DNA from: the human T2T-CHM13v2.0 reference genome, Homo sapiens | DNA length: 64,000 bases | NCBI RefSeq assembly: GCF_009914755.1 | Contig: NC_060936.1 | Reading direction: 5' to 3' (one strand) | Shown: positions 3,722 to 44,915 of the stretch, piece by piece | How positions within the stretch are numbered: position 1 is the first letter of the stretch | Layout: each line of letters opens with the position of its first letter | The notes under the pieces: model-generated | What the model was told of the DNA's origin: nothing | Database searches by the model: none | Seen by the model: only the letters and a program-made list of their open reading frames with translations | Position numbers and translations under genes: made by a program

Positions 3722-4095
<374 letters not shown>

Positions 4096-4186
4096 TGAGA
4101 ACTCTTTATACTATCTGCTCATTTCCCCCATGGAAATCTAAAACTATTCTAAAGAGTTAAGTCTATTAATTGAAAAAAAAAAAAAA

Positions 4187-4399
4187 GTCAACATCCTGGT
4201 AACATGCAGAGGGCAGGAGTAGGTTGAGATTGGGCCGGGACAAGGGAAGAGGCTTGGGAGGTGGTCAGTGAAGTCTTATTTCATGCCCTGGGTAGTAGGT
4301 ACATAGGTGTTCACCTTATGAAGCTATACATTTGTTCTGTGAGGTTTCCAGCATTTATTTTTCTTACATACAAAAAGTTAAACACAAATGAAAAGACAA
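4187..4399 (+). mobile_element. L1ME-like 3' end fragment
   Basis: gggtagtaggtacataggtgttcacc motif and A-rich end. Confidence 0.45.
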
Positions 4400-4493
4400 A
4401 CTTCACCTGTTCTTTTTTTTACCTTTTTAAAAAACATGGCTACTAGAAAATTTAAACTGTGTATCTGACACATGACATTTTTATTGGAAAGCT
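4400..4493 (+). mobile_element. MER33-like MITE, 3' part
   Basis: ttcacctgttcttttt...ggctactagaaaatttaaa...tattggaaagc continues the element broken at 2920. Confidence 0.7.
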
Positions 4494-5685
4494 TTGCCTT
4501 AGAAGCTTCCAGTGTGTCAGAATATTGTTGCATTTTATGTTTGCATGAACCTTTCACACCAGATGCTTGTCAGGCTCTAAAAGGGCAGAGAGTAGGGATG
4601 TCACTGAAATTATAGGAACAGGTTGTATGATTTTTTTGTGTGTGCCGGCTTGCCAATAAATATTTGTACATGCTGCTTGCTTTATATGATACCATCTGGT
4701 AGTGATACTGCACAGAGAAGACACATCAGTCCCTCTAAGCATGGGACACACCTGATCCTTACCAAAAGAACCTGACAATTATAAGACAGATAAGTTAGCT
4801 TAGGTCAGTTTGCAAGGAGTAAAACAAGCACAATTTCCAGAGGCCCCACAAAATGCCTAGAAATGAGCTGAGAGAGAGCGACCCTACAAAGAATTGTCAG
4901 TTTCAGTGAGGGGTTGCTGCGGAAAGCAGAAGTAGAAAGCAGAAAGTTGATCATGTCCCCTGGGACATGGGTGCCTCAATAGAAGCCAGCATGGAAGAAT
5001 GCCCATACCCCAAGTTCAGCTGAGATTTTACCCTTTTAACCAATGATGGTGTAGAATGGAAGACAGCTGCATATCAGTTTCCAATCTTGCTTCCAAGCTG
5101 TCTTAGCTTGTCTTCAGCTTGTCTTGATCCAAGCTGAACTTAGATCAGTCTTCAGGAAGACAGAATGAAGAAGGCAGAGGGGAAAATTCGAAATCAACTG
5201 AGTTTAAACCCAAGGTGGCTGAGAACATCCTGAACCGGCTGAGAAAACCTAAAAACATCATAAGTTTTCTGCCCTCATACAGACTGGGAGCTCAGGTAGA
5301 AACAAAGTTTGATCATTGAGAAATATGCTTGATATCTTCCTGGTTTTTTGTTTGTTTGCTTGTTTCTAACACCTGAGTTTTGTGGCCTAAGAAACTTGTC
5401 TGAGCCATAGCCTTCTGGCTTAGCTAAAAGATACAGCTTATAAGATACTTACTGTGCCCGTTGGTAGAGGTGCACCAAATATAACTTTTGGCCAAATACC
5501 CAAGGGCTGAGTGTTATAATCATGCCAAAAACTAATTATTGTCACCACAGAATGAATTTCTGGTTTATGCAAATGTGGTAGGTTATTTTTAAGAATGACT
5601 TTAATTATACTCCTCCCTGTATTCATGCCCCCCTTGGTATGTAACGGGAATGCCCTTCCACTCGGGTTCAGATTCTGGGCTCAGG

Positions 5686-5853
5686 GTTTTTTTGGGGGCG
5701 TGCAGGGTTTCACTCTGTCATCCAGGCTGGAGTGCAGTGGCACGATTACGGCTCAGGCTCACTGCAGTCTGACCTCCTGGGCTCAAGCCATCCTCCCACC
5801 TCAGCTTCCCGAGCAGCTGGGACTACAGGTGTGCGCCCCCACACCCAGCTAAT
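5686..5853 (-). mobile_element. AluJ right-arm fragment
   Basis: T-tract, then cactctgtcatccaggctggagtgcagtgg...cccagctaat. Confidence 0.85.
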
Positions 5854-5855
5854 CT

Positions 5856-6195
5856 AGGCTCAGTTTTGTACTTATGTTAGAGTTATCTGTGGGTCTTCCG
5901 AGTGGGGATGCCCAGAAAGCCTTTAAATATATAATGCAGGATCTCAAGAGAGATATTTGAGCTGGAAATACAGATTTGGCATCCTTAGCATATAGTCGTT
6001 GGAATGACTGACATCCCTCAGGAAGAGTGTTGGCAAAAGAGAAAAGGGCTTGGAGGCAGAACCCTGGGGCCAGAAAAGCAAGAAGTGTCTGCACAGAGAG
6101 ACAATGAAGAAAGATTTAAAAGAGAGCTAGGAGCCACAGGGAGATGATGGTTTTGAGATCTACAGAGTGGTCACAGGTATCAAAAGCAATCTAAG
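5856..6195 (-). repeat. Inverted ~330-bp copy of the L2 segment at 43390-43720
   Basis: About 22 mismatches and no gaps over a ~167-bp block, counted by hand against the reverse complement. Confidence 0.9.
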
Positions 6196-8849
6196 GTCCA
6201 AGGAAATCTTGATAGGAGCAATTTTAGGGGAATTGTCGGCTTGCTCTCTCATTGCTTTTGAATCCCTGTGACTACTGCCTTGTGACCAAGCCCAGCCTAG
6301 CCTGCTGCATGATGAGAAACCACATGGAGAAAGGAGTCAGTTATCCCAGCTGACCCAGCTAGCCTTACCAACTAGCCTTACCATCTTATGGTACAGCCGA
6401 TGACAGCATTACCACTGAGTTATTTAGCTTTTCTTTCTTCCTGGTAGTAACTCACAGAAGACTTTTGACTCCTGGACTTAAAGATATGTCTAATGGTGAG
6501 GATACAATTTTTGGAGGAGATTCCACAAATAAGAGCTCTGCGTACTATCTGAAGAAGATATACTCTACTTTCTGAAGCATTGTCATCAATTCCATTTCTT
6601 AAAATTCCTGATGTTTGCATGTACTTGCTGCCTCACACCTCCACTTTAGAAAAGTGTGTTCTTAAATCTTGGGTCCAGAAATGTGGTAATGGACCCACTT
6701 TAATTGGCTTCCAAGGTAATACAGTTCTCTGTATTTCCTTCTTCAACGTGGCCTTTGTAGTATGCAAATTTTCGCATCTTCCCTGACAAAGCATGATAGG
6801 TGCATCTTTATCGATAAGAAATGCTTGCTCTCTTAAGGACCATTGCTCTGGCTATTCAGTAGATTTTGGTGTAGGGACCACTTTCTCTGCAGGAAGTCTC
6901 TGGTGGTTAGCAAGCCCTGCTATATGGGCATTTTAATCTGCAAAGTGCTGAATTAAAGGCTCTGTTTTGTTCGAGCAGCCTTTTAAAAATGTAATAGCTG
7001 CTATTTCATCTTGTTTGAACATCTTGTATAAGTACATGACAAGTCAATTCCAAAATTCCTTGTCTGCCTTGAGGTTTGTCTTTCGCTGAAGAAAAATGAT
7101 GAAAGTGGCCTCTTATCTTCCTGTTTACAGTCAGTCATTCTGCTTCATTAGGCTGCATGCTAATTACTTTCTGAAAACACAACTGAAGATTCATGGCCTA
7201 AACAGAATTAAATTACTAAAAGCTAAATATAGCTTTGGAGATTATTTTATTTAATGTTAAGAGGGCTAAAACAAATAATTATATAAAAATTAGAATTATG
7301 AAATAATCTAATCTCTATATTCTGCCTAATGCCATTTAAATTTTTATAAAGCTTTTTGATTCAAAAAGGATATTATATTCTGCCTAAAGTTTTCTAGTTA
7401 ATGCTATCTCTATTTACATGTTAGAAATTTCTTGAAATTTTTTTTCATAACATGGAGAACTTTCATAATCATCATGAACTATTCCAGCATTTTACTCTGG
7501 CAAATTAAAAATATACATTTATACTTCAACTGAGTGATAGGAGTTCAAAGTCCAAAGCACACAAATAATTTCTTTTTACTCTCAGTTACATCTAAAATAC
7601 TTACCTATGTTTGAAAGTACACGTTCAGATATTAATAATGACTCTGAATAGCATGTCTTATTGTATTATTGTGCTGATTAAATTTGATGGTAACTATGCA
7701 TTCACTTGCTCATTGATCAAATGCACATTCAGGGAGCCCAGAAATGACATTAAAGTTGGCATTCTGTTACTCAGCCTTCCAACGGTCAAAGCCAATACCT
7801 AAACACATTTTGGCCAAATATTGTGGCTGAAGCCAAACTTTAGTACAACCCTCATTCCCAGGAAACAGTGATTGAAAGGAAGTCCAGGCATTTAGGCAGG
7901 AAGAAAAGGGCAACTATAACCACAACACCAAGAAAAATAAAAAATAAAATAAAAAAAGGCCAGCTATAATAAGCAGACATGATTTATTGCTCAAATTAGC
8001 AAGGAATATAGAGTTAGGCCAGAAATAGGATTTGGTGATCAAGGATAGAGAACTTTCTTGTGAGTTCAGGGACACTTAGATTAGATCTACCCTTTAGGAA
8101 AGTCTGCTAAATGTCATATTAATGCTAAGTTCTTTGTATGTACAGCCCAGATGTCTGCTAGGTTGATAGGCTCTGCTAATTAGTAGTTCCACCTCAACCT
8201 GCCTCCCAGCACCATCAGTGATCACAGTTATTTCCAGAAGACACCCAAAGTGTGATTCAAACCTTTCTTCTGTTGCTTGGTATCATATGTCTACCGACAT
8301 TGTCTATGCAGCTGCTTGGAGAAGGCTCCCCACCCCGCATTGCTGCCACCTTGCATGGGAGTGCCCAGGACCCTGCCAAGAACTGTACTGAAGATTTGCC
8401 TTTGGGTACTTTCAGATTTCAACCCCTGAGGTGCCTGAACAGTGTTTGCCAAGGGTTTGTTTGCCAAGGGTTTGGGCAGCGTGGTGGAGTAGCCAGGCGA
8501 ACATGGTTTCCTTCAAGATTGCTTCTAAAGCAGCTTTTCTTATGCTCAGAGCCCCTCAAATCCTCTTGAGTAGCCCCATCTGCCTCCACACTTCCCTCTC
8601 CTTGAGGGCTGAAAATAAGACACTATTTCATCACCTTTCTGGGTTTTTTCCCCTTTTCCTACTCAGCCCTTCCCCTCATGAAAACATCTCTCCTTTTCCA
8701 GTTAAAAAAACAGTCAAAAAACACCAAAAAAGCCCACCTCCATATGTGAACAGAGATAAATCAAAACTAGCCTGTGTACAGGTTAGGGGGATAGGAAGAA
8801 TACGCCGTCTCTCATCTTTCCCAGGTTTGGTTGTTGTACTAGTTTTTTT

Positions 8850-9198
8850 TTCTTTTCTTTTCTTTTTTTTGCATAACAAATCACTACAAGCTTCCTGGCT
8901 TACAATGACACCCATTTTATTATCTCGCAGTTTTATAGGTCAGAAGTTCTGTAGGTCAGAAGTGCAGGCTGGCTCTACTGGGATCTCTCCTTAGGGTTTC
9001 TTTTTTCTTCTGCTAATGGCTGGAGAAAACTTTTGGCTTTTAAAGGGCTTGTGTGATGAGATGAGGCACACTCAGACCATCTCCTTTTTGAGGAGGGATA
9101 TCTCACCATAATCACAGATTCCACCTGAACTCAAAGGGGAGGGCATTGTATAAGAGTGAGGGTCATTGGGGATCATTCTTAGAATTCTACCTACCACA
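8850..9198 (-). mobile_element. MLT1D-like MaLR LTR
   Basis: gcataacaaatcactacaa...ttagaattctacctaccaca terminus. Confidence 0.65.
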
Positions 9199-9399
9199 TA
9201 GGCATATTAGAATTATCCTTTTGATCAGGACCAAAATATACGGGTTCTCAGTCATCTCCCCTCTTCTCTGAGATTCTAGGTTTGACAGTCTGGAGCAAAG
9301 CTGAGGGACTTGTATGTTTCACAGGCCCAGCAATGTGATTCTGAGGCAGAGTCTTTTGGGGAGAGTGTTGGAATATCAACCCAAAAGGGCCTGCAATAT

Positions 9400-9560
9400 G
9401 TATATCATCTTTTATCCTGAATTAACTCTTTCAGGTTTGTATCGTTTCCTCCATTTAGAGGTGAGGAAACCAAGGTACAAAGAGTCTAAGCAACTTTCTC
9501 AAGATCTCACAGTAAGCGGGAGAAGCCAGGTTTAGCACCCAGGAAGTATGGTTTGCAAAA
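9400..9560 (-). mobile_element. MIR
   Basis: ccatttagaggtgaggaaaccaagg...aaggtacaaagagtctaagcaact core. Confidence 0.55.
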
Positions 9561-9908
9561 CTGCGTGGTTCCTCACTCTTAGAAGTGGATTAATACTAAC
9601 ATCGACCTAGAATTTTGTGAGAACCAGACAGGAGGATTTAAGCTTAGTAAGACTGAGGTGATGGCCATGAATCCCAAATACAGAGAACTAGTAGACATAC
9701 TTGATACTAGTTAAGTTTAACTTCTCTTGGACAAAGTTTGATTTTATTCACTCGGTATATCTTGAATTGCTTACCTATGTTCAGATCAACTGAACATATT
9801 TTGTTGAATGCCTATTATGCATTCCTTAATTCATTTAAAAATATAAATGAATTTATGAGCAGAAGAAAAATATTTGAATATGAGGTATGGCTTGATCCAC
9901 ATTGGTAG

Positions 9909-10238
<330 letters not shown>

Positions 10239-20570: not shown

Positions 20571-21597
20571 CCATCCTTGGGTCCCAGAACCTTATCCTCT
20601 TGGCAAAAGATATGAAACTATCTTTTAAAGCCTGCTGGCCTAGAAAGCTTAAGTTATCCTACTTGATATGAGCAGATTGTTATCAGACAGCCCAAACGCA
20701 TTATAATGCTTTCTCTCATCCTGGCCCACACAGTTCGAATATAATCCTTTAAAAATAGGAGCCTTTTGTCTTATAGTAACTAACCCCCAATGAAGTCTAT
20801 TTTGCACTAAATTCTGCTCTTTGGGGTATGAGCTAGTAGCAAAACCACAATAGAGCCTAAACAATGATTTCAAGCACCCTAGAGTGGTAGTTGCTAAGGA
20901 CAACATTTGACAAGCCAGAGATCCTGGGCAGAGGCCACTGGGAAGGACAAGAGGAGGGCGCCCATCTGGCTCGCCCACCAGATCCAGGCAGGCGCAGCAC
21001 ATCGTAAATAACCTCTTACACATGCCTCACTGCCAGCTCAAAATGGGTTTTGAGTGCATTTGGCTTGTTTTTAAAGAGGGTGTGAGCTAAAGGCTGTCAT
21101 TTAAAATTGCCCAGAACCCATGTCACAAGAACAGGTGGGCCCAGTTTAAAACAAAATAAATGAGAGGCTGAACTTACCAAAGCAAATATTGTGGAGTGAT
21201 TATTCTGCTTTAGAAAAGGATTACCCTTGGGACTCTTCAGAGCAGTGATCTCTCTTATTGCCATTAAAATGTAAATCTCTCAATTCAAATTTGGTTAACA
21301 CTCATGACCTTTCAGGAAAATGCTTGCTTTATTGAGCAAGGAATCCATTCCTTGTAAAGAAGAACAAATGAAAGGTTTGGTTCTTTTTTACAAATATGGA
21401 ATAAGGTCTGCAAAGCTCTATTTCCTTTTTCTTTCTAAATGTGAAAGCTGTTAGAGAAGCCCCTCTATGGGAGAGGTTTTGTTTTTAAATTTCACTTGAC
21501 ATTCTTTCCTGAAACACGCTTATTAAAAGGTCAAGATTAGGTAGAGATACCAAACCCTTTTGTGAGCACATTTTATCTGCTGCTGAAAAGCTCTTTA

Positions 21598-21613
21598 TCA
21601 GTAGGTGGCGCTA
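21598..21613 (+). promoter_or_regulatory. CTCF-like motif
   Basis: TCAGTAGGTGGCGCTA versus consensus CCASYAGRKGGCRS: one mismatch, CpG retained. Confidence 0.5.
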
Positions 21614-22256
21614 TAAGAATGAGATTACCATACGCAGGGGCCAACACATTCAGGATAGAAAGCAAAATTCCGCCCTTTCTTGGACATCTTCCTGAAGGAA
21701 ACAGCTTCGCTCTGCACCTTCATAGGATTCCTCTTTGCTTACCCCGAGCTGTCCCGCTCTGAATTGCTGTTTGAGCAGAGGGATGCCCACATTGTACCCT
21801 TCTTAGAATCCCAGAATGTGAAGGCTAGGAAGGACCTCTTATGTAATGGCTTAGCTTGCAGTCTTTTCATCCTGGAATCACAGGATCTGTAAAGGTTAGA
21901 GGAACCTTAGAAATCATCTCCAACACTCATGTTTTCCATGAGGAAGTTGAGACTGAAATGAAGGACTCAAAATCACCTAGGTAGTTCATAGCTCAGGCAG
22001 GACAAGAGCCTTAGTGGGCTTGCTTGACATCCAGTGTTTCCCAGTTATTGGGGAACACTGCAGGGCAGTGTGAGAGGGAAATGATAAGTGGTGTGTGGGG
22101 AGACAGTGGCCCTGCCTGGCCTGGGTTCAGGCAGAGCTCACTGACTGTGGGTGGACAACATTAAACATTAAGGATTTTCTCCCTCTATTCCCTATAGTCA
22201 ACGATTGCCACCCTTGCAGGACTTACGACAAATGTCAGGTGCCGAGTCTTTCTCTT

Positions 22257-22617: not shown

Positions 22618-24462
22618 CTCTTCAAGCTAACTTTCCCTTATTTCTGCCAACCAAACCACCATTTCCCCCAACACTCAGATTTATAACTTAGAGTCCCTGT
22701 TGTCTAGTCCCTTTAGTATGGATTCCCTGTGTGCTTGGAAACATTCTAGGCTGCAGGGTACAGAATCGAACAAAATAGATAAAATCCTTGCTCTTATAAA
22801 GAAAACAGAAAATAAATAGAATAAATAAGTAAATTAATTAGTATATTAGTGATGAGTGCTAAGGAGGGGGGGAAAATCCAGAGTGGAAAGAGGGATGTAA
22901 AGTGTTAGGGATGGAATAGAAATTGGGTCAGAGAAGGCCTTACTGAGAAAGTCCCTGAGTCAGGAGCAGGCTTTGAATCTTAGGAACAGAAAGGAGACCA
23001 ATAGACTATTTCTAAATTCTTACCAAGTGCAGATTTGTTTTTTCTTTCTCAATGTGTCCTCCTGATCCCCTATTTGTCCCTGTTGTGATCTCTTTAGGCA
23101 AGGTCCAAGCCGAAACTGAACAGATGAGGAGGAGTAAGCCAGGTGCAGGGAGTTGGGAGGGTGAAGAGAAGAGGGATAAGGAGAAAGTTCTAGTATGTGG
23201 TAAAGGCCTACTGTTCCTGAAGAGTCATCTTATGCCAGACTAGAGGACTTAAACTGTCCTTGGAATCCACATTTGTGGCCTTGGTGATTATTTCCCTACT
23301 CTACCTCTTGGGGTCCCATGTCACTATTTTCAGGCTTAGCTTTCCAAACCTGGACAATCTTTTAAGACCCAGTAAAAATGCCATCTTTCTTAGGCGTGGG
23401 CAAGAAGCCCATCTCCACATGCTCATTCCCTACTTTGAGTCCTATAACGTAATAGATTATGTCTTTCATTTGCTATTTAATAGTCCTCCCTTCGATTGGT
23501 TACTTATCTTTGACTCAGCTGTGTGTTGACATGACACTGTTGTGAGCCACAGAAAGCTGAAACGTCTCACCCACCTATGCAGATAGTGCTTTGCAGATTA
23601 CTGTGTTGGGCACCTACAGTGAGAGAGGCAGCTTCCTCCTTTGCAAAATGAAAGTAGGAAAATCTGCCTCTGGAGAGTTGTAAGGATTACATGAGACACT
23701 GGAATGAAAGTCCTTAGTTCAGGGTTGGCTTCCATTGTAACCACTTAATAAAAGGTAATGGTGACTTGGTTGTCACTGAAAAGACCATTGGACTTATAGC
23801 TGAGCTGTTGGTTCTGCTACTTATTAGCTTTGTGACCTTGGACAAGTAATTTAACAGGATTCTTGGGTCTCTCTTTTCTCATCTGTAAAATGGGATAATA
23901 ATAACTAACTTCAAAGAACAATTTTGAGGCTCAAATTTCTAACAGTGTGTATGCAATCAATTATCTGAAGGGTCTCAATCCCTTTGGGTATAATGCCATG
24001 AAGTAGTTTTATTTTCCCCAATCATTGCTTCCAACTGTGCTATGTTGTATTGCTCTTTTCCTGGGGATAGTGCTCCCTTGGTGATAGCTTGGACAGATTT
24101 AATAACTTCCTAGTCACCTTGTGGTGTGGGCAATCTTGTCTCAGAGTTTAAGACACAGCGCAGTTTATTTTCATGACCCCAATATCAAGCTTGATTAAAA
24201 GTTCTGTTCCTGGCCCCAGGTAGATCATTCTCTTTTGCAGCCCTGGGAGCCTGGAGTGGAAGACCAAAGACCAGAGATGGCTCTGAGGTCATTGCCCTGC
24301 CCCCATTCCCCCCTCCTCCCCCCAGTTCTTGTGTAATTGAGGGCAAGGAGGAAGGTTACAGGAAGCAGAGGTATTCTTCTGTGATTGCCCACAAGGCCAC
24401 CAGGGGTAGGCAAAAGTTGTGCCTCTGGCTTCCCTCCAGTTCTATTTGGGTCTATCTGATGC

Positions 24463-24478
24463 TAGCGCCCTCTGTTGG
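24463..24478 (-). promoter_or_regulatory. CTCF-like motif
   Basis: Reverse complement CCAACAGAGGGCGCTA: one mismatch to the core consensus. Confidence 0.5.
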
Positions 24479-25076
24479 AGTGGTGGTCTCCTCACAGGTG
24501 GTGTGCATGTTTTTCTTTGGAGTGGTATTGGGTCTCCTCTGCCACTGGGGACCACTTTCCCTGGTTGACATTCCATCATTTGGTCCAGGGGTCATCAGGG
24601 CTGCTCAAAGATTCCTGCTCTTCTTGCCTTGGTATTGCTTTACCCAGTGGAGACACAGAAATTTCCAAATTCCTCTTCTGCACCCTCTAAAGGCCACAGA
24701 GAACAGGTATGGAGTGGGCCTTCACTGTCTTCTTTCCAGCCACACCACACTGCACCATGGATATTTCCAGCCCTGTGGGTATGGGCTATCCCACCAAGAT
24801 ATCCAACTTCAGTAAGAAGTTAAGTAAGCACCAGTCTGTTTCCAAAGTCCCCCAAATACAAGACTGCACATTTCGGGCACCTACTCTTTTTTCCCATAGT
24901 AAGGAGAGAAATGAGAAGGTTTATGGGCTATTCCTGGGTTTTTAAAACATTCTCCAAGAGCTCTCTCTCACTAGAGAATGCTTGGGGACAGCTTGATGAC
25001 TGGCCCAGCAGGTACCAGAGATCAGCAAACAACCCACCAGGAAATGGGAAGCTCTTTGTCTTGCAAGCTCCCCTAA

Positions 25077-43199: not shown

Positions 43200-43950
43200 A
43201 CATTGTAATTTTCTCCTCAAATTTCTTTGCATGCCTTTAACTGGTAAGTCCTTCTTGGTAGTTTCACTGCATTTGGATTTTAAACCTACCACTCTTCTCA
43301 AGTTGCTCCTATGAACGTCTTCAATGACCTTCCTGATGGCTAGATTCAAGATACCCACTTCAGTACTTATCTTTCTTAAACACACCATGGCTGTTGATGC
43401 CAGTGACCACTCCACGGATTCCAAAACCATCCACTTCCTGTAAGTCCTAGCTCTTTTTCAATTCTTTCTTCATTGTCTCTCTGTGTAGACGTGTCTTCCT
43501 TTTCTGACCCCAGGGTTCTACCCCCAAACCCTCTTCACTTCTTTCTCCAACATTCTTCCTGAGAGATGTCAGTCATTCCAATGACTGTATGCTAAGGATG
43601 CCCAGTCTGCATTTGCAGCTCAAGTGTCTCTCTTGAGATCCTGCATTATACATTTAAAGGTTTCCTGGGTATCTTCATTTGGAAGACCTATAGATAACTC
43701 TAACTTAAGTTCAAAAGTTAGCTCACTATCCTTCTCCCCAGATACATTCCTCTTCCTCCTTTTTCTGTTTAGGCCCCCCTTTCCCCTCTAGATACCCAGC
43801 TAGAAACTTGGAAACCATCCTCATTCTCCACATTCAATTGATCTCAGAATCCTGCTGCTTCAAATTCCCTTTATATCTCCTGAATCTGTCCCCTCCTGAC
43901 TATTTTCCCTTGCATTACACAGGCTCTGGCTTGCACTGGCTTTCTAATAG
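43200..43950 (+). mobile_element. L2 fragment (source of two templated copies)
   Basis: caatgaccttcctgatggctagattc, tatgctaaggatgcccagtctgcatttgcagc and other L2 ORF2/3' motifs. Confidence 0.7.
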
Positions 43951-43954
43951 ACTT

Positions 43955-44915
<961 letters not shown>

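What the first reader, a model, noticed from the sequence alone, without database searches (positions are those of the whole stretch)
5400..8340. Hidden full-length BED-finger hAT transposase fossil: candidate lost domesticated ZBED-like gene
Seen: translating the minus strand through stops and frameshifts gives each ZBED/Ac-family module in order and at plausible spacing. (1) MRGGEPSPSSCIDNVGRHMIPSNRRKV*(W), ATG at 8340, 27 codons before the BED Trp. (2) C-D-H-*(C), GGTTN, RHL: BED zinc finger. (3) ELTRK...LITKSYFWPNSIF. (4) GIGFDRWKAE*QN, the first catalytic Asp, then SECIVT...NT. (5) CLGH (CxxH). (6) RKIRGHFHHFSSAKDKPQGRQGILELTCHVLIQDVQTR*NSSYYIFKRLLEQ. (7) TFLDPRFKNTLF*SGGVRQQV. (8) After an MLT1 insertion, FWHD...LAKSYIWCTSTNGHSKYLIS. 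Established: TRWNS, LDPRFK, CxxH and SERxFS are hAT transposase hallmarks. Human ZBED1, as recalled, has KSKVW, GISTDMWRSENQN, PCLGH and [21 protein letters not shown]. Inference: one frame holds for ~600 nt (7185-6590) despite great age, I found no TIRs, and the second Asp and the Glu are not retained. It may therefore be a domesticated ZBED-type gene pseudogenised early in eutherians rather than an ordinary transposon copy.
Basis: partly seen in the sequence, partly recalled or inferred. Interest (0 to 1): 0.92.

Follow-up and report, generated by a model that had tools for sequence, protein, structure and literature searches.

The report
Decayed, internally deleted hAT transposon copy
This stretch is one worn-out, internally deleted copy of an ancient "cut-and-paste" hAT transposon that is scattered over the human genome, not the remains of a lost ZBED-type host gene, so it is ordinary.

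Summary
Window 7854 to 5465 (minus strand) is one copy of a dispersed hAT DNA transposon family. Own-genome DNA searches found 11 and 26 other places. All 23 fetched loci fit one profile of about 2.65 kb.

The family has roughly 15-bp terminal inverted repeats and several different internal-deletion derivatives. Its rough consensus encodes a ZBED4-like transposase (45% identity over 87 aa, 82 bits).

The window copy keeps these parts:
- the 5' end and untranslated region (7854-7195)
- the family's start codon (7194-7192)
- after a deletion of about 770 nt, the ORF from 7189 to 6370
- about 745 nt of foreign DNA
- the 3' end (5623-5465)

The deletion removed the family's BED finger, the stretch where the first catalytic Asp should lie, and the CxxH motif.

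Its "first Asp" lies in non-coding subterminal repeats, its "CLGH" is the start-codon region read out of frame, and its C-terminal motif straddles the 3' repeat and the flank.

Decay looks neutral: 76% identity to the consensus in coding and non-coding parts alike, with no codon-position bias. Domestication is not supported.

The parts
7839..7854 (-). 5' terminal inverted repeat remnant; the element starts here (plus or minus 1 nt).
   Evidence: In 9 copies, homology to the window stops at window 7799-7855, and none of the 23 loci goes further. The MAFFT alignment shows a shared start of the form (C/T)AG.G.TGCA..AAAG. The profile consensus starts TAGGGATGCAC.
7195..7838 (-). 5' subterminal and untranslated region of the transposon, with TTTGG(C) repeats near the end.
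   Evidence: The leave-window-out profile hits 7644-7186 at E=2e-62. The r2 profile hits 7852-6392. 26 other genomic places match 7196-7860. TTTGG lies at 17 and 36 nt from the end.
7192..7194 (-). The family's transposase start codon (ATG in GGCCATGA).
   Evidence: Column alignment of 13 copies around model 440-470. The consensus reads M-S-L-S-R-K-S-P-I-W-E-F-F from this ATG.
7186..7189 (-). Junction of an internal deletion of about 770 nt (profile positions about 468-1236), at a TCTT microhomology and in frame with the ATG. The deletion removed the BED finger, the stretch where the first catalytic Asp should lie, and the CxxH motif.
   Evidence: The window matches model 2-468 and then 1237-2104, with nothing in between anywhere in the 64-kb window. 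Junction columns are shown.
6370..7189 (-). Transposase ORF remnant, from just after CxxH to the start of the C-terminal domain. It carries 7 in-frame stops plus indels and includes the real modules 6 (7134-6952) and 7 (6693-6610).
   Evidence: Leave-window-out profile E=2e-119. ZBED4 E=1.8e-7 and ZBED1 E=0.003. Stops are seen and indels.
5624..6369 (-). Foreign DNA replacing about 160 profile positions (2097-2256, where the family's SE.LF C-terminal motif lies). It includes an Alu-like piece at 5686-5890 and another repeat at 5891-6369.
   Evidence: There is a gap between profile hits. 5690-5885 matches dozens of places in the fetched loci. 5892-6190 has an 83% copy at window 43387-43688 and short copies elsewhere.
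5465..5623 (-). 3' subterminal region and 3' terminal inverted repeat (5479-5465, TTTGGTGCACCTCTA).
   Evidence: The leave-window-out profile hits 5623-5464 at E=7.6e-11. An alignment of 8 copy ends shows homology stopping after CTCT(A). blastn to L037 gives 5428-5561 at 64%.
7855..8340 (-). Flanking DNA that is not part of the element.
   Evidence: No family homology. The own-genome search with 7690-8345 found only a 40-nt match. Pfam gave 0 of 3 frames. No ZBED BED-finger hit.

Best explanation
Window 7854-5465 (minus strand) is a dead copy of an ancient autonomous-type hAT (Ac-like) DNA transposon family of about 2.65 kb.

Family layout:
- TIRs of about 15 bp, with TTTGG(C)-rich subterminal regions.
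- A 5' untranslated region of about 660 nt.
- One ORF. Shown: an N-terminal BED finger, a CxxH motif, the TRWNSSYY and LDPRFK blocks, and a hAT-type C-terminal motif seen by eye only. Inferred from hAT architecture, not located here: the catalytic Asp/Asp/Glu residues.

How the copy arose (inferred): the element inserted by cut-and-paste transposition roughly 100 million years ago or more. It carries an in-frame internal deletion of about 770 nt at a TCTT microhomology. That is the kind of product abortive gap repair gives, although the deletion could equally have happened in place after insertion. The copy later took up about 745 nt of foreign repeat DNA near its 3' end and has decayed neutrally since.

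It does nothing today as a gene. Only the central and late part of the transposase (ZBED4 aa ~835-1060 equivalent) survives, riddled with stops.
For: Multi-copy and dispersed:
- 11 other places match 6590-7190 and 26 other places match 7196-7860, on 17 chromosomes.
- All 23 of 23 fetched loci match one 2677-position profile. They had been picked by similarity to the window.

Shared ends:
- 5' homology stops at window 7799-7855 in 9 copies.
- 3' homology stops after CTCT(A).
- The majority ends read by eye are complementary at about 13-14 of 15 positions. The hmmemit consensus gives 10 of 15.

Different deletion derivatives:
- L051 joins model 516 to 2195.
- L054 joins model 407 to 2013.
- L029 joins model 154 to 892.
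- The window joins model 468 to 1237.

Family consensus against human ZBED ORFs:
- ZBED4 aa 823-909, 45% identity, 82 bits.
- ZBED6 62 bits.
- ZBED1 37 bits, plus LDPRFK at 34 bits.
- ZBED4 BED finger aa 458-515 against model 474-653, E=0.002, which falls in the part missing from the window.

BED remnants appear in 8 other loci at E<=0.004 and none in the window.

Neutral decay:
- Identity to a leave-one-out consensus is 76.0% in the window's untranslated part and 75.9% in its ORF part. All 47 segments range from 65.6% to 82.3%.
- Differences by codon position are 34/174, 41/175 and 37/171.
Against: - No 8-bp target-site duplication could be recovered: the window's flanks match at 3 of 8, and L051 and L036 are no better.
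- Pfam does not recognise the window. It found 0 families in 3 frames and no hAT dimerisation domain in 0 of 18 frames from 6 other copies.
- Only 1 of 6 BED remnants reached zf-BED, at E=0.018, which is below Pfam's cut-off.
- The hAT C-terminal motif of the family rests on reading a rough consensus by eye. An ad hoc HMM gave no significant hit.
- The consensus comes from a median of 8 copies, so lengths and frames are approximate.
- The Dfam/Repbase name was not established.
- Age is inferred from K2P of about 0.29 and a recalled neutral rate.
Confidence: 0.93

Rival explanations
1. One reading: a full-length, BED-finger-bearing, domesticated ZBED-type gene at this locus that became a unitary pseudogene early in eutherians.
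For: Modules 6 and 7 do resemble ZBED4, ZBED6 and ZBED1. They share a reading frame, and the deletion junction is in frame with the start codon.
Against: - The sequence is multi-copy and has TIRs.
- The claimed ATG and BED finger lie outside the element and match nothing.
- The family's real BED finger and its CxxH motif, and the stretch where the first Asp should lie, are deleted here.
- Decay is equal in coding and non-coding parts, with no codon-position bias.
- There are 7 stops and 11 indel events.
Confidence: 0.02
2. The copy was full-length when it inserted, and the 770-nt deletion and 3' damage happened later in place. This contrasts with a pre-formed deletion derivative that was mobilised by the family's transposase.
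For: None of the other 22 loci shares this junction. Old insertions accumulate deletions, and the 3' side clearly suffered later insertions.
Against: Other copies show clean 5'-to-3' joins typical of derivatives made during transposition (L051, L054). The junction sits at a 4-nt microhomology, which fits gap repair but also fits replication slippage. The data here cannot decide.
Confidence: 0.4
3. The fossil, or part of it, has been co-opted as a non-coding regulatory element.
For: None from my calls. The hub's annotation lists RefSeq functional elements elsewhere in the window (21549-21843 and 24209-24503) but none here.
Against: Divergence from the consensus is in the middle of the family's range. 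No annotated element overlaps. Cross-species conservation was not testable.
Confidence: 0.03

Closest known systems
Ancient mammalian hAT DNA transposon fossils, as catalogued in Dfam/Repbase (autonomous consensus plus internally deleted non-autonomous copies)
   Same: Short TIRs starting (C/T)AG, a single BED-finger transposase ORF, many dispersed decayed copies, and heterogeneous internal deletions.
   Different: I could not name the family. The one locus annotated as OldhAT1 that I could place shows no match to my profiles at E<=10. That locus is on chr19 (L056). OldhAT1 is described as hAT-Ac, 2848 bp, in passages of PMC6224067. OldhAT1 is also described as tetrapod-age with no long copies (bioRxiv 10.64898/2026.04.14.718546, passages read), whereas this family has copies of about 2.4 kb. 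So it is probably another, somewhat younger family.
ZBED4, ZBED6 and ZBED1 (domesticated Ac-family hAT transposases; Hayward et al. 2013, PMC3606216, abstract and passages read)
   Same: The family consensus shares the CxxH...TRWNS...LDPRFK core with ZBED4 at 45% identity over 87 aa, and a BED finger of the KS.IW.FF...C..C...HL..RH type.
   Different: The ZBED genes are single-copy, intact, and lack TIRs. This locus is one of dozens of copies, is bounded by TIRs, lacks the BED finger and CxxH, and decays neutrally. The ZBED loci were named from chromosome position and ORF length (recalled), and for ZBED1 from Table 1 of PMC3606216.
Ac of maize / Hermes (active Ac-family hAT elements)
   Same: Overall layout, and a TIR beginning (C/T)AGGGATG-like. 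The Ac TIR is recalled, not tested.
   Different: No activity and no recoverable 8-bp target-site duplication. phmmer of the 75-aa window fragment against PDB chains found no hAT transposase; the best hit was E=1 and unrelated.

Membership tests
hAT superfamily DNA transposon | Short terminal inverted repeats, typically starting (C/T)AG | tested here: met
   Family ends from aligned copies: the 5' end reads (C/T)AG.GATGCA..AAA and the 3' end reads TTTGGTGCACCTCTA. About 13-14 of 15 positions are complementary by eye on the majority ends, and 10 of 15 on the hmmemit consensus. The window's own 5' arm is decayed, matching the consensus at about 9-10 of 15-16 positions.
hAT superfamily DNA transposon | 8-bp target-site duplication | tested here: inconclusive
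   The window's flanks match at 3 of 8. L051 and L036 show no clear duplication either. This is expected to be eroded at about 25% divergence, and the ends are known only to plus or minus 1 nt.
hAT superfamily DNA transposon | Transposase core homologous to known hAT proteins (CxxH, TRWNS and LDPRFK blocks) | tested here: met
   Consensus against ZBED4 82 bits, ZBED6 62 bits, ZBED1 37 and 34 bits. The window itself against ZBED4 gives 43 bits, E=1.8e-7, and against ZBED1 E=0.003.
hAT superfamily DNA transposon | N-terminal BED zinc finger | tested here: met
   Met at family level only, and weakly. The consensus matches the ZBED4 BED finger aa 458-515 at E=0.002 with a C..C...H...H pattern. Remnants appear in 8 loci at E<=0.004. 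Pfam zf-BED hit 1 of 6 remnants, E=0.018, below the cut-off. It is absent from the window copy.
hAT superfamily DNA transposon | C-terminal hAT dimerisation domain (PF05699) | tested here: inconclusive
   Pfam matched 0 of 18 frames from 6 copies, and an ad hoc HMM was not significant. A YP.LA...TSVESEHLF...LLFL.YN pattern is visible by eye in the consensus.
hAT superfamily DNA transposon | Dispersed copies, including internal-deletion derivatives that keep both ends | tested here: met
   (L051, L054, L029 and the window each have a different junction).
Domesticated ZBED-type gene / unitary pseudogene | Single copy without transposon ends | tested here: not met
   At least about 36 other places match, and TIRs bound the locus.
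Domesticated ZBED-type gene / unitary pseudogene | BED finger and complete ORF at the locus | tested here: not met
   The BED finger and CxxH lie in the 770 nt missing from this copy. The claimed BED finger at 8260-8150 is outside the element and matches nothing.
Domesticated ZBED-type gene / unitary pseudogene | Trace of purifying selection after insertion | tested here: not met
   75.9% identity in the ORF part against 76.0% in the untranslated part. Codon-position differences are 0.195, 0.234 and 0.216.
Domesticated ZBED-type gene / unitary pseudogene | Intact syntenic orthologue in outgroup species | not testable with these tools
   No other vertebrate genome is held.
Dfam OldhAT1 (DF000001275) | Sequence match to an OldhAT1-annotated copy | tested here: not met
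   The chr19 locus L056, located from a 25-nt stretch printed in PMC6224067, gives no nhmmer hit to either profile at E<=10. This is a weak test: one short, old fragment.

The most novel reading that the evidence does not exclude
The family could be a mammalian-age autonomous Ac-type hAT transposon that is not yet curated, or is curated only as fragments. Its transposase is closer to the ZBED4/ZBED6 clade than to ZBED1 (82 and 62 bits against 37 bits). That would mean mobile relatives of that domesticated clade were still active in early mammals.
Probability: 0.06. Interest if true: 0.25.

Novelty: already known. Interest (0 to 1): 0.07.

Why it matters
It matters mainly as a correction. A striking "hidden ZBED gene" turns out to be an ordinary transposon fossil.

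Six of the eight motif matches were accidents of reading decayed DNA in three frames. They came from flanking DNA, subterminal repeats, a start-codon region read out of frame, and a terminal repeat.

The case shows that aligning a few genomic copies is enough to find an element's true ends, its start codon and its deletions. Motif order and spacing alone are not evidence of a gene.

Tried and rejected
- Pfam hmmscan of the three minus frames of 5400-8420 with stops as X found 0 families at E<=10.
- The PF05699 whole-genome search found the ZBED-type genes but not the window.
- The repeat finder for inverted repeats within the single copy gave nothing convincing. The TIRs only emerged from the family alignment.
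- phmmer of the 75-aa fragment against PDB gave only an unrelated E=1 hit.
- tblastn of ZBED ORFs against the 23 individual loci at E<=0.05 gave no hits outside the window, because the copies are too decayed.
- I first thought 'VQESKVFC' (window 6477-6451) might be the SE.xFS motif. The family consensus puts that motif about 110 nt further on, in the part missing from the window, so I dropped the idea.
- I first read a contiguous blastn alignment as L029 sharing the window's deletion. The profile shows a different junction.
- The target-site duplication search was not informative.
- The OldhAT1 identity test was negative but weak.
- Earlier findings of this scan were not open.
Full report
**What is in the sequence**

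The window is human T2T chr12:107074001-107138000 (hub note; confirmed). Whether the strings are homologous to a transposase is a separate question.

**Direct protein tests on the window**

Pfam hmmscan of the three minus frames of 5400-8420, with stops read as X, returned 0 families at E<=10.

A whole-genome search with PF05699 found 11 places, none of them the window. I took the longest ORFs at six of these places. By position and length (recalled) three are ZBED1, ZBED4 and ZBED6; for ZBED1 this also agrees with Table 1 of PMC3606216. The other three are hAT-derived genes. I ran these ORFs with tblastn against window 4000-10000.
- ZBED4 aa 827-910 aligned to 7179-6952 (33% identity, E=1.8e-7).
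- ZBED6 aa 606-671 aligned to 7134-6937 (E=0.04).
- ZBED1 aa 470-497 aligned to 6693-6610 (E=0.003).
- ZBED1 aa 195-242 aligned to 7799-7668 only at E=0.11.
- Nothing on the minus strand matched a BED finger in 7855-8340.

Modules 6 and 7 are therefore supported. The rest is not supported by direct comparison.

**It is a multi-copy repeat**

An own-genome DNA search with 6590-7190 found 11 other places at 70-81% identity over 80-240 nt. A search with 7196-7860 found 26 other places. A search with 7690-8345 found only a 40-nt match. A protein search with the 75-aa module-6 fragment added two more loci and the ZBED4 gene itself. The places lie on 17 chromosomes.

I fetched 23 loci. Sensitive blastn and nhmmer showed collinear homology at about 60-66% pairwise identity over window 7855-6380 and 5561-5428.

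**Ends of the element**

No locus extends past window 7855. Nine reach 7799-7855 and stop there. Flanks beyond that point share only Alu-type matches. The aligned 5' boundaries begin (C/T)AG.G.TGCA..AAAGTTTGGC.

At the other end, homology in 6 of 8 aligned copies stops after TTTGGTGCACCTCT(A), which is window 5479-5465.

Read by eye, the two majority ends are complementary at about 13-14 of 15 positions. The cruder hmmemit consensus gives 10 of 15. TTTGG occurs four times in the first 90 nt and twice in the last 60 nt of the consensus, against about 2 per kb inside.

An 8-bp target-site duplication could not be recovered: the window shows 3 of 8.

**Full-length family and the window's deletions**

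I built a profile starting from the nearly complete copy L037. It has 2677 positions, and the element ends near position 2441. It omits the first roughly 210 nt of the element. All 23 loci matched it.

The window matches positions 2-467 (7644-7186), 1236-2096 (7189-6369) and 2257-2454 (5623-5433). I then rebuilt the profile without the window (44 rows) and ran it over the whole 64-kb window. Only three hits appeared: 7644-7186 (E=2e-62), 7189-6370 (E=2e-119) and 5623-5464 (E=7.6e-11).

The copy therefore lacks about 770 nt (positions 468-1236). It also lacks about 160 nt (positions 2097-2256), which are replaced by about 745 nt of foreign DNA. That DNA contains an Alu-like piece at 5686-5890 and another repeat that has an 83% copy at window 43387-43688.

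Other loci carry different deletions. L051 joins 516 to 2195, L054 joins 407 to 2013, and L029 joins 154 to 892. This is the classic pattern of a cut-and-paste family.

**What the family encodes**

I made a majority consensus, kept inside scripts, at a median depth of 8 copies. Its matches to the human ZBED ORFs were:
- ZBED4 aa 823-909: 45% identity, 82 bits. This stretch holds CxxH and then TRWNSSYY.
- ZBED6: 62 bits.
- ZBED1: 37 bits, plus the LDPRFK block at 34 bits.
- ZBED4 BED finger aa 458-515 to profile 474-653: E=0.002, with the KS.IW.FF...C..C...HL..RH pattern.

Remnants of this BED finger are seen in 8 other loci at E<=0.004, and none is seen in window 4400-9000 at E<=10. Pfam zf-BED recognised 1 of 6 such remnants, at E=0.018, below its cut-off. 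It recognised none of the 3 frames of window 8100-8345.

The hAT C-terminal pattern is visible by eye in the consensus at about 2065-2240. Pfam found it in 0 of 18 frames from 6 copies, and an ad hoc HMM was not significant. I did not locate the catalytic Asp/Asp/Glu residues in the consensus.

- Column alignment shows that window GGCC-ATG-AAT-CTT is the family's start codon region; the consensus reads M-S-L-S-R-K-S-P-I-W from that ATG.
- It is joined through a TCTT microhomology to CAG-TTG-TGT, the codons that follow the family's CxxH motif.
- 'GIGFDRW' lies 53-88 nt from the 5' end, in the TTTGG repeats, about 600 nt upstream of the start codon.
- 'LAKSYIWCTS|TNGHSKYLIS' runs across the 3' terminal repeat into the flank.
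- Modules 1-3 lie entirely in the flank.

**Selection**

I measured identity to a leave-one-out majority consensus.
- Window untranslated part: 76.0% (425 sites).
- Window ORF part: 75.9% (723 sites).
- Window 3' part: 65.6% (160 sites).
- All 47 segments: 65.6-82.3%.

Differences in the window's ORF part fall evenly on codon positions: 34/174, 41/175 and 37/171. Other copies pooled give 0.250, 0.243 and 0.268.

The frame from the ATG to 6610 has 7 stops. There are 11 indel events between modules 6 and 7, most of them not multiples of three. So the shared frame of the two modules is a one-in-three coincidence, not constraint.

K2P of about 0.29 and a recalled neutral rate of about 2e-9 per site per year suggest an age of the order of 100 million years or more. 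This is an inference, and the noisy consensus inflates the figure.

**Comparison with what is known**

This is an Ac-type hAT fossil of the kind long catalogued in mammalian genomes. I could not run Dfam.

OldhAT1 was my recalled candidate. It is described as hAT-Ac, 2848 bp, in passages of PMC6224067. It is described as tetrapod-age and highly fragmented in passages of bioRxiv 10.64898/2026.04.14.718546. The one OldhAT1-annotated locus I could place does not match my profiles at E<=10. The family name therefore stays open.

Hayward et al. 2013 (PMC3606216, abstract and passages read) place ZBED1-4 and ZBED6 in the Ac family. The fossil's transposase is nearest to ZBED4 and ZBED6.

**Verdict**

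The locus is an ordinary, internally deleted, neutrally decaying transposon copy.

Three questions remain open: the Dfam name, cross-species dating, and whether the 770-nt deletion preceded insertion.

Noticed in passing
window 43387-43688 (+) and 44261-44319 (-): An 83%-identical copy of window 5892-6190, part of the foreign insert inside the hAT fossil, lies 37 kb away in the same window. A 92%-identical 60-nt piece lies nearby. This is probably two copies of one LTR-type or other interspersed repeat.
   Followed up: no
window 7186-7194: The internal deletion fuses the family's start codon in frame to the ORF just after the CxxH motif, at a TCTT microhomology. A deletion derivative of this kind could once have encoded an N-terminally truncated protein lacking the BED finger.
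   Followed up: partly
window 7837-7760 and 5529-5465; family consensus ends: TTTGG(C) motifs cluster in the subterminal 60-90 nt at both ends, against about 2 per kb inside. They are plausibly transposase-binding subterminal repeats.
   Followed up: partly
L032 (G000:C3:46297500-46307000) 5267-5592 (+) beside 5053-4223 (-): This chr3 copy carries an inverted partial duplicate of profile positions 1010-1338 next to the main copy.
   Followed up: no
L051 1412-2351 and L054 1315-2056: These are short derivatives that join the 5' untranslated part directly to the 3' end (516 to 2195 and 407 to 2013). They are MITE-like non-autonomous members of the family.
   Followed up: partly
L046:2496-2684 (+): The decayed BED-region translation of this copy gave a sub-threshold Pfam hit to DUF7829 (E=7e-4, 19.4 bits against a cut-off of 28.6) rather than to zf-BED.
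   Followed up: no
window 7920-7990: A T-rich low-complexity tract lies just outside the 5' end of the element. It gave the only genomic match of the 7690-8345 query.
   Followed up: no
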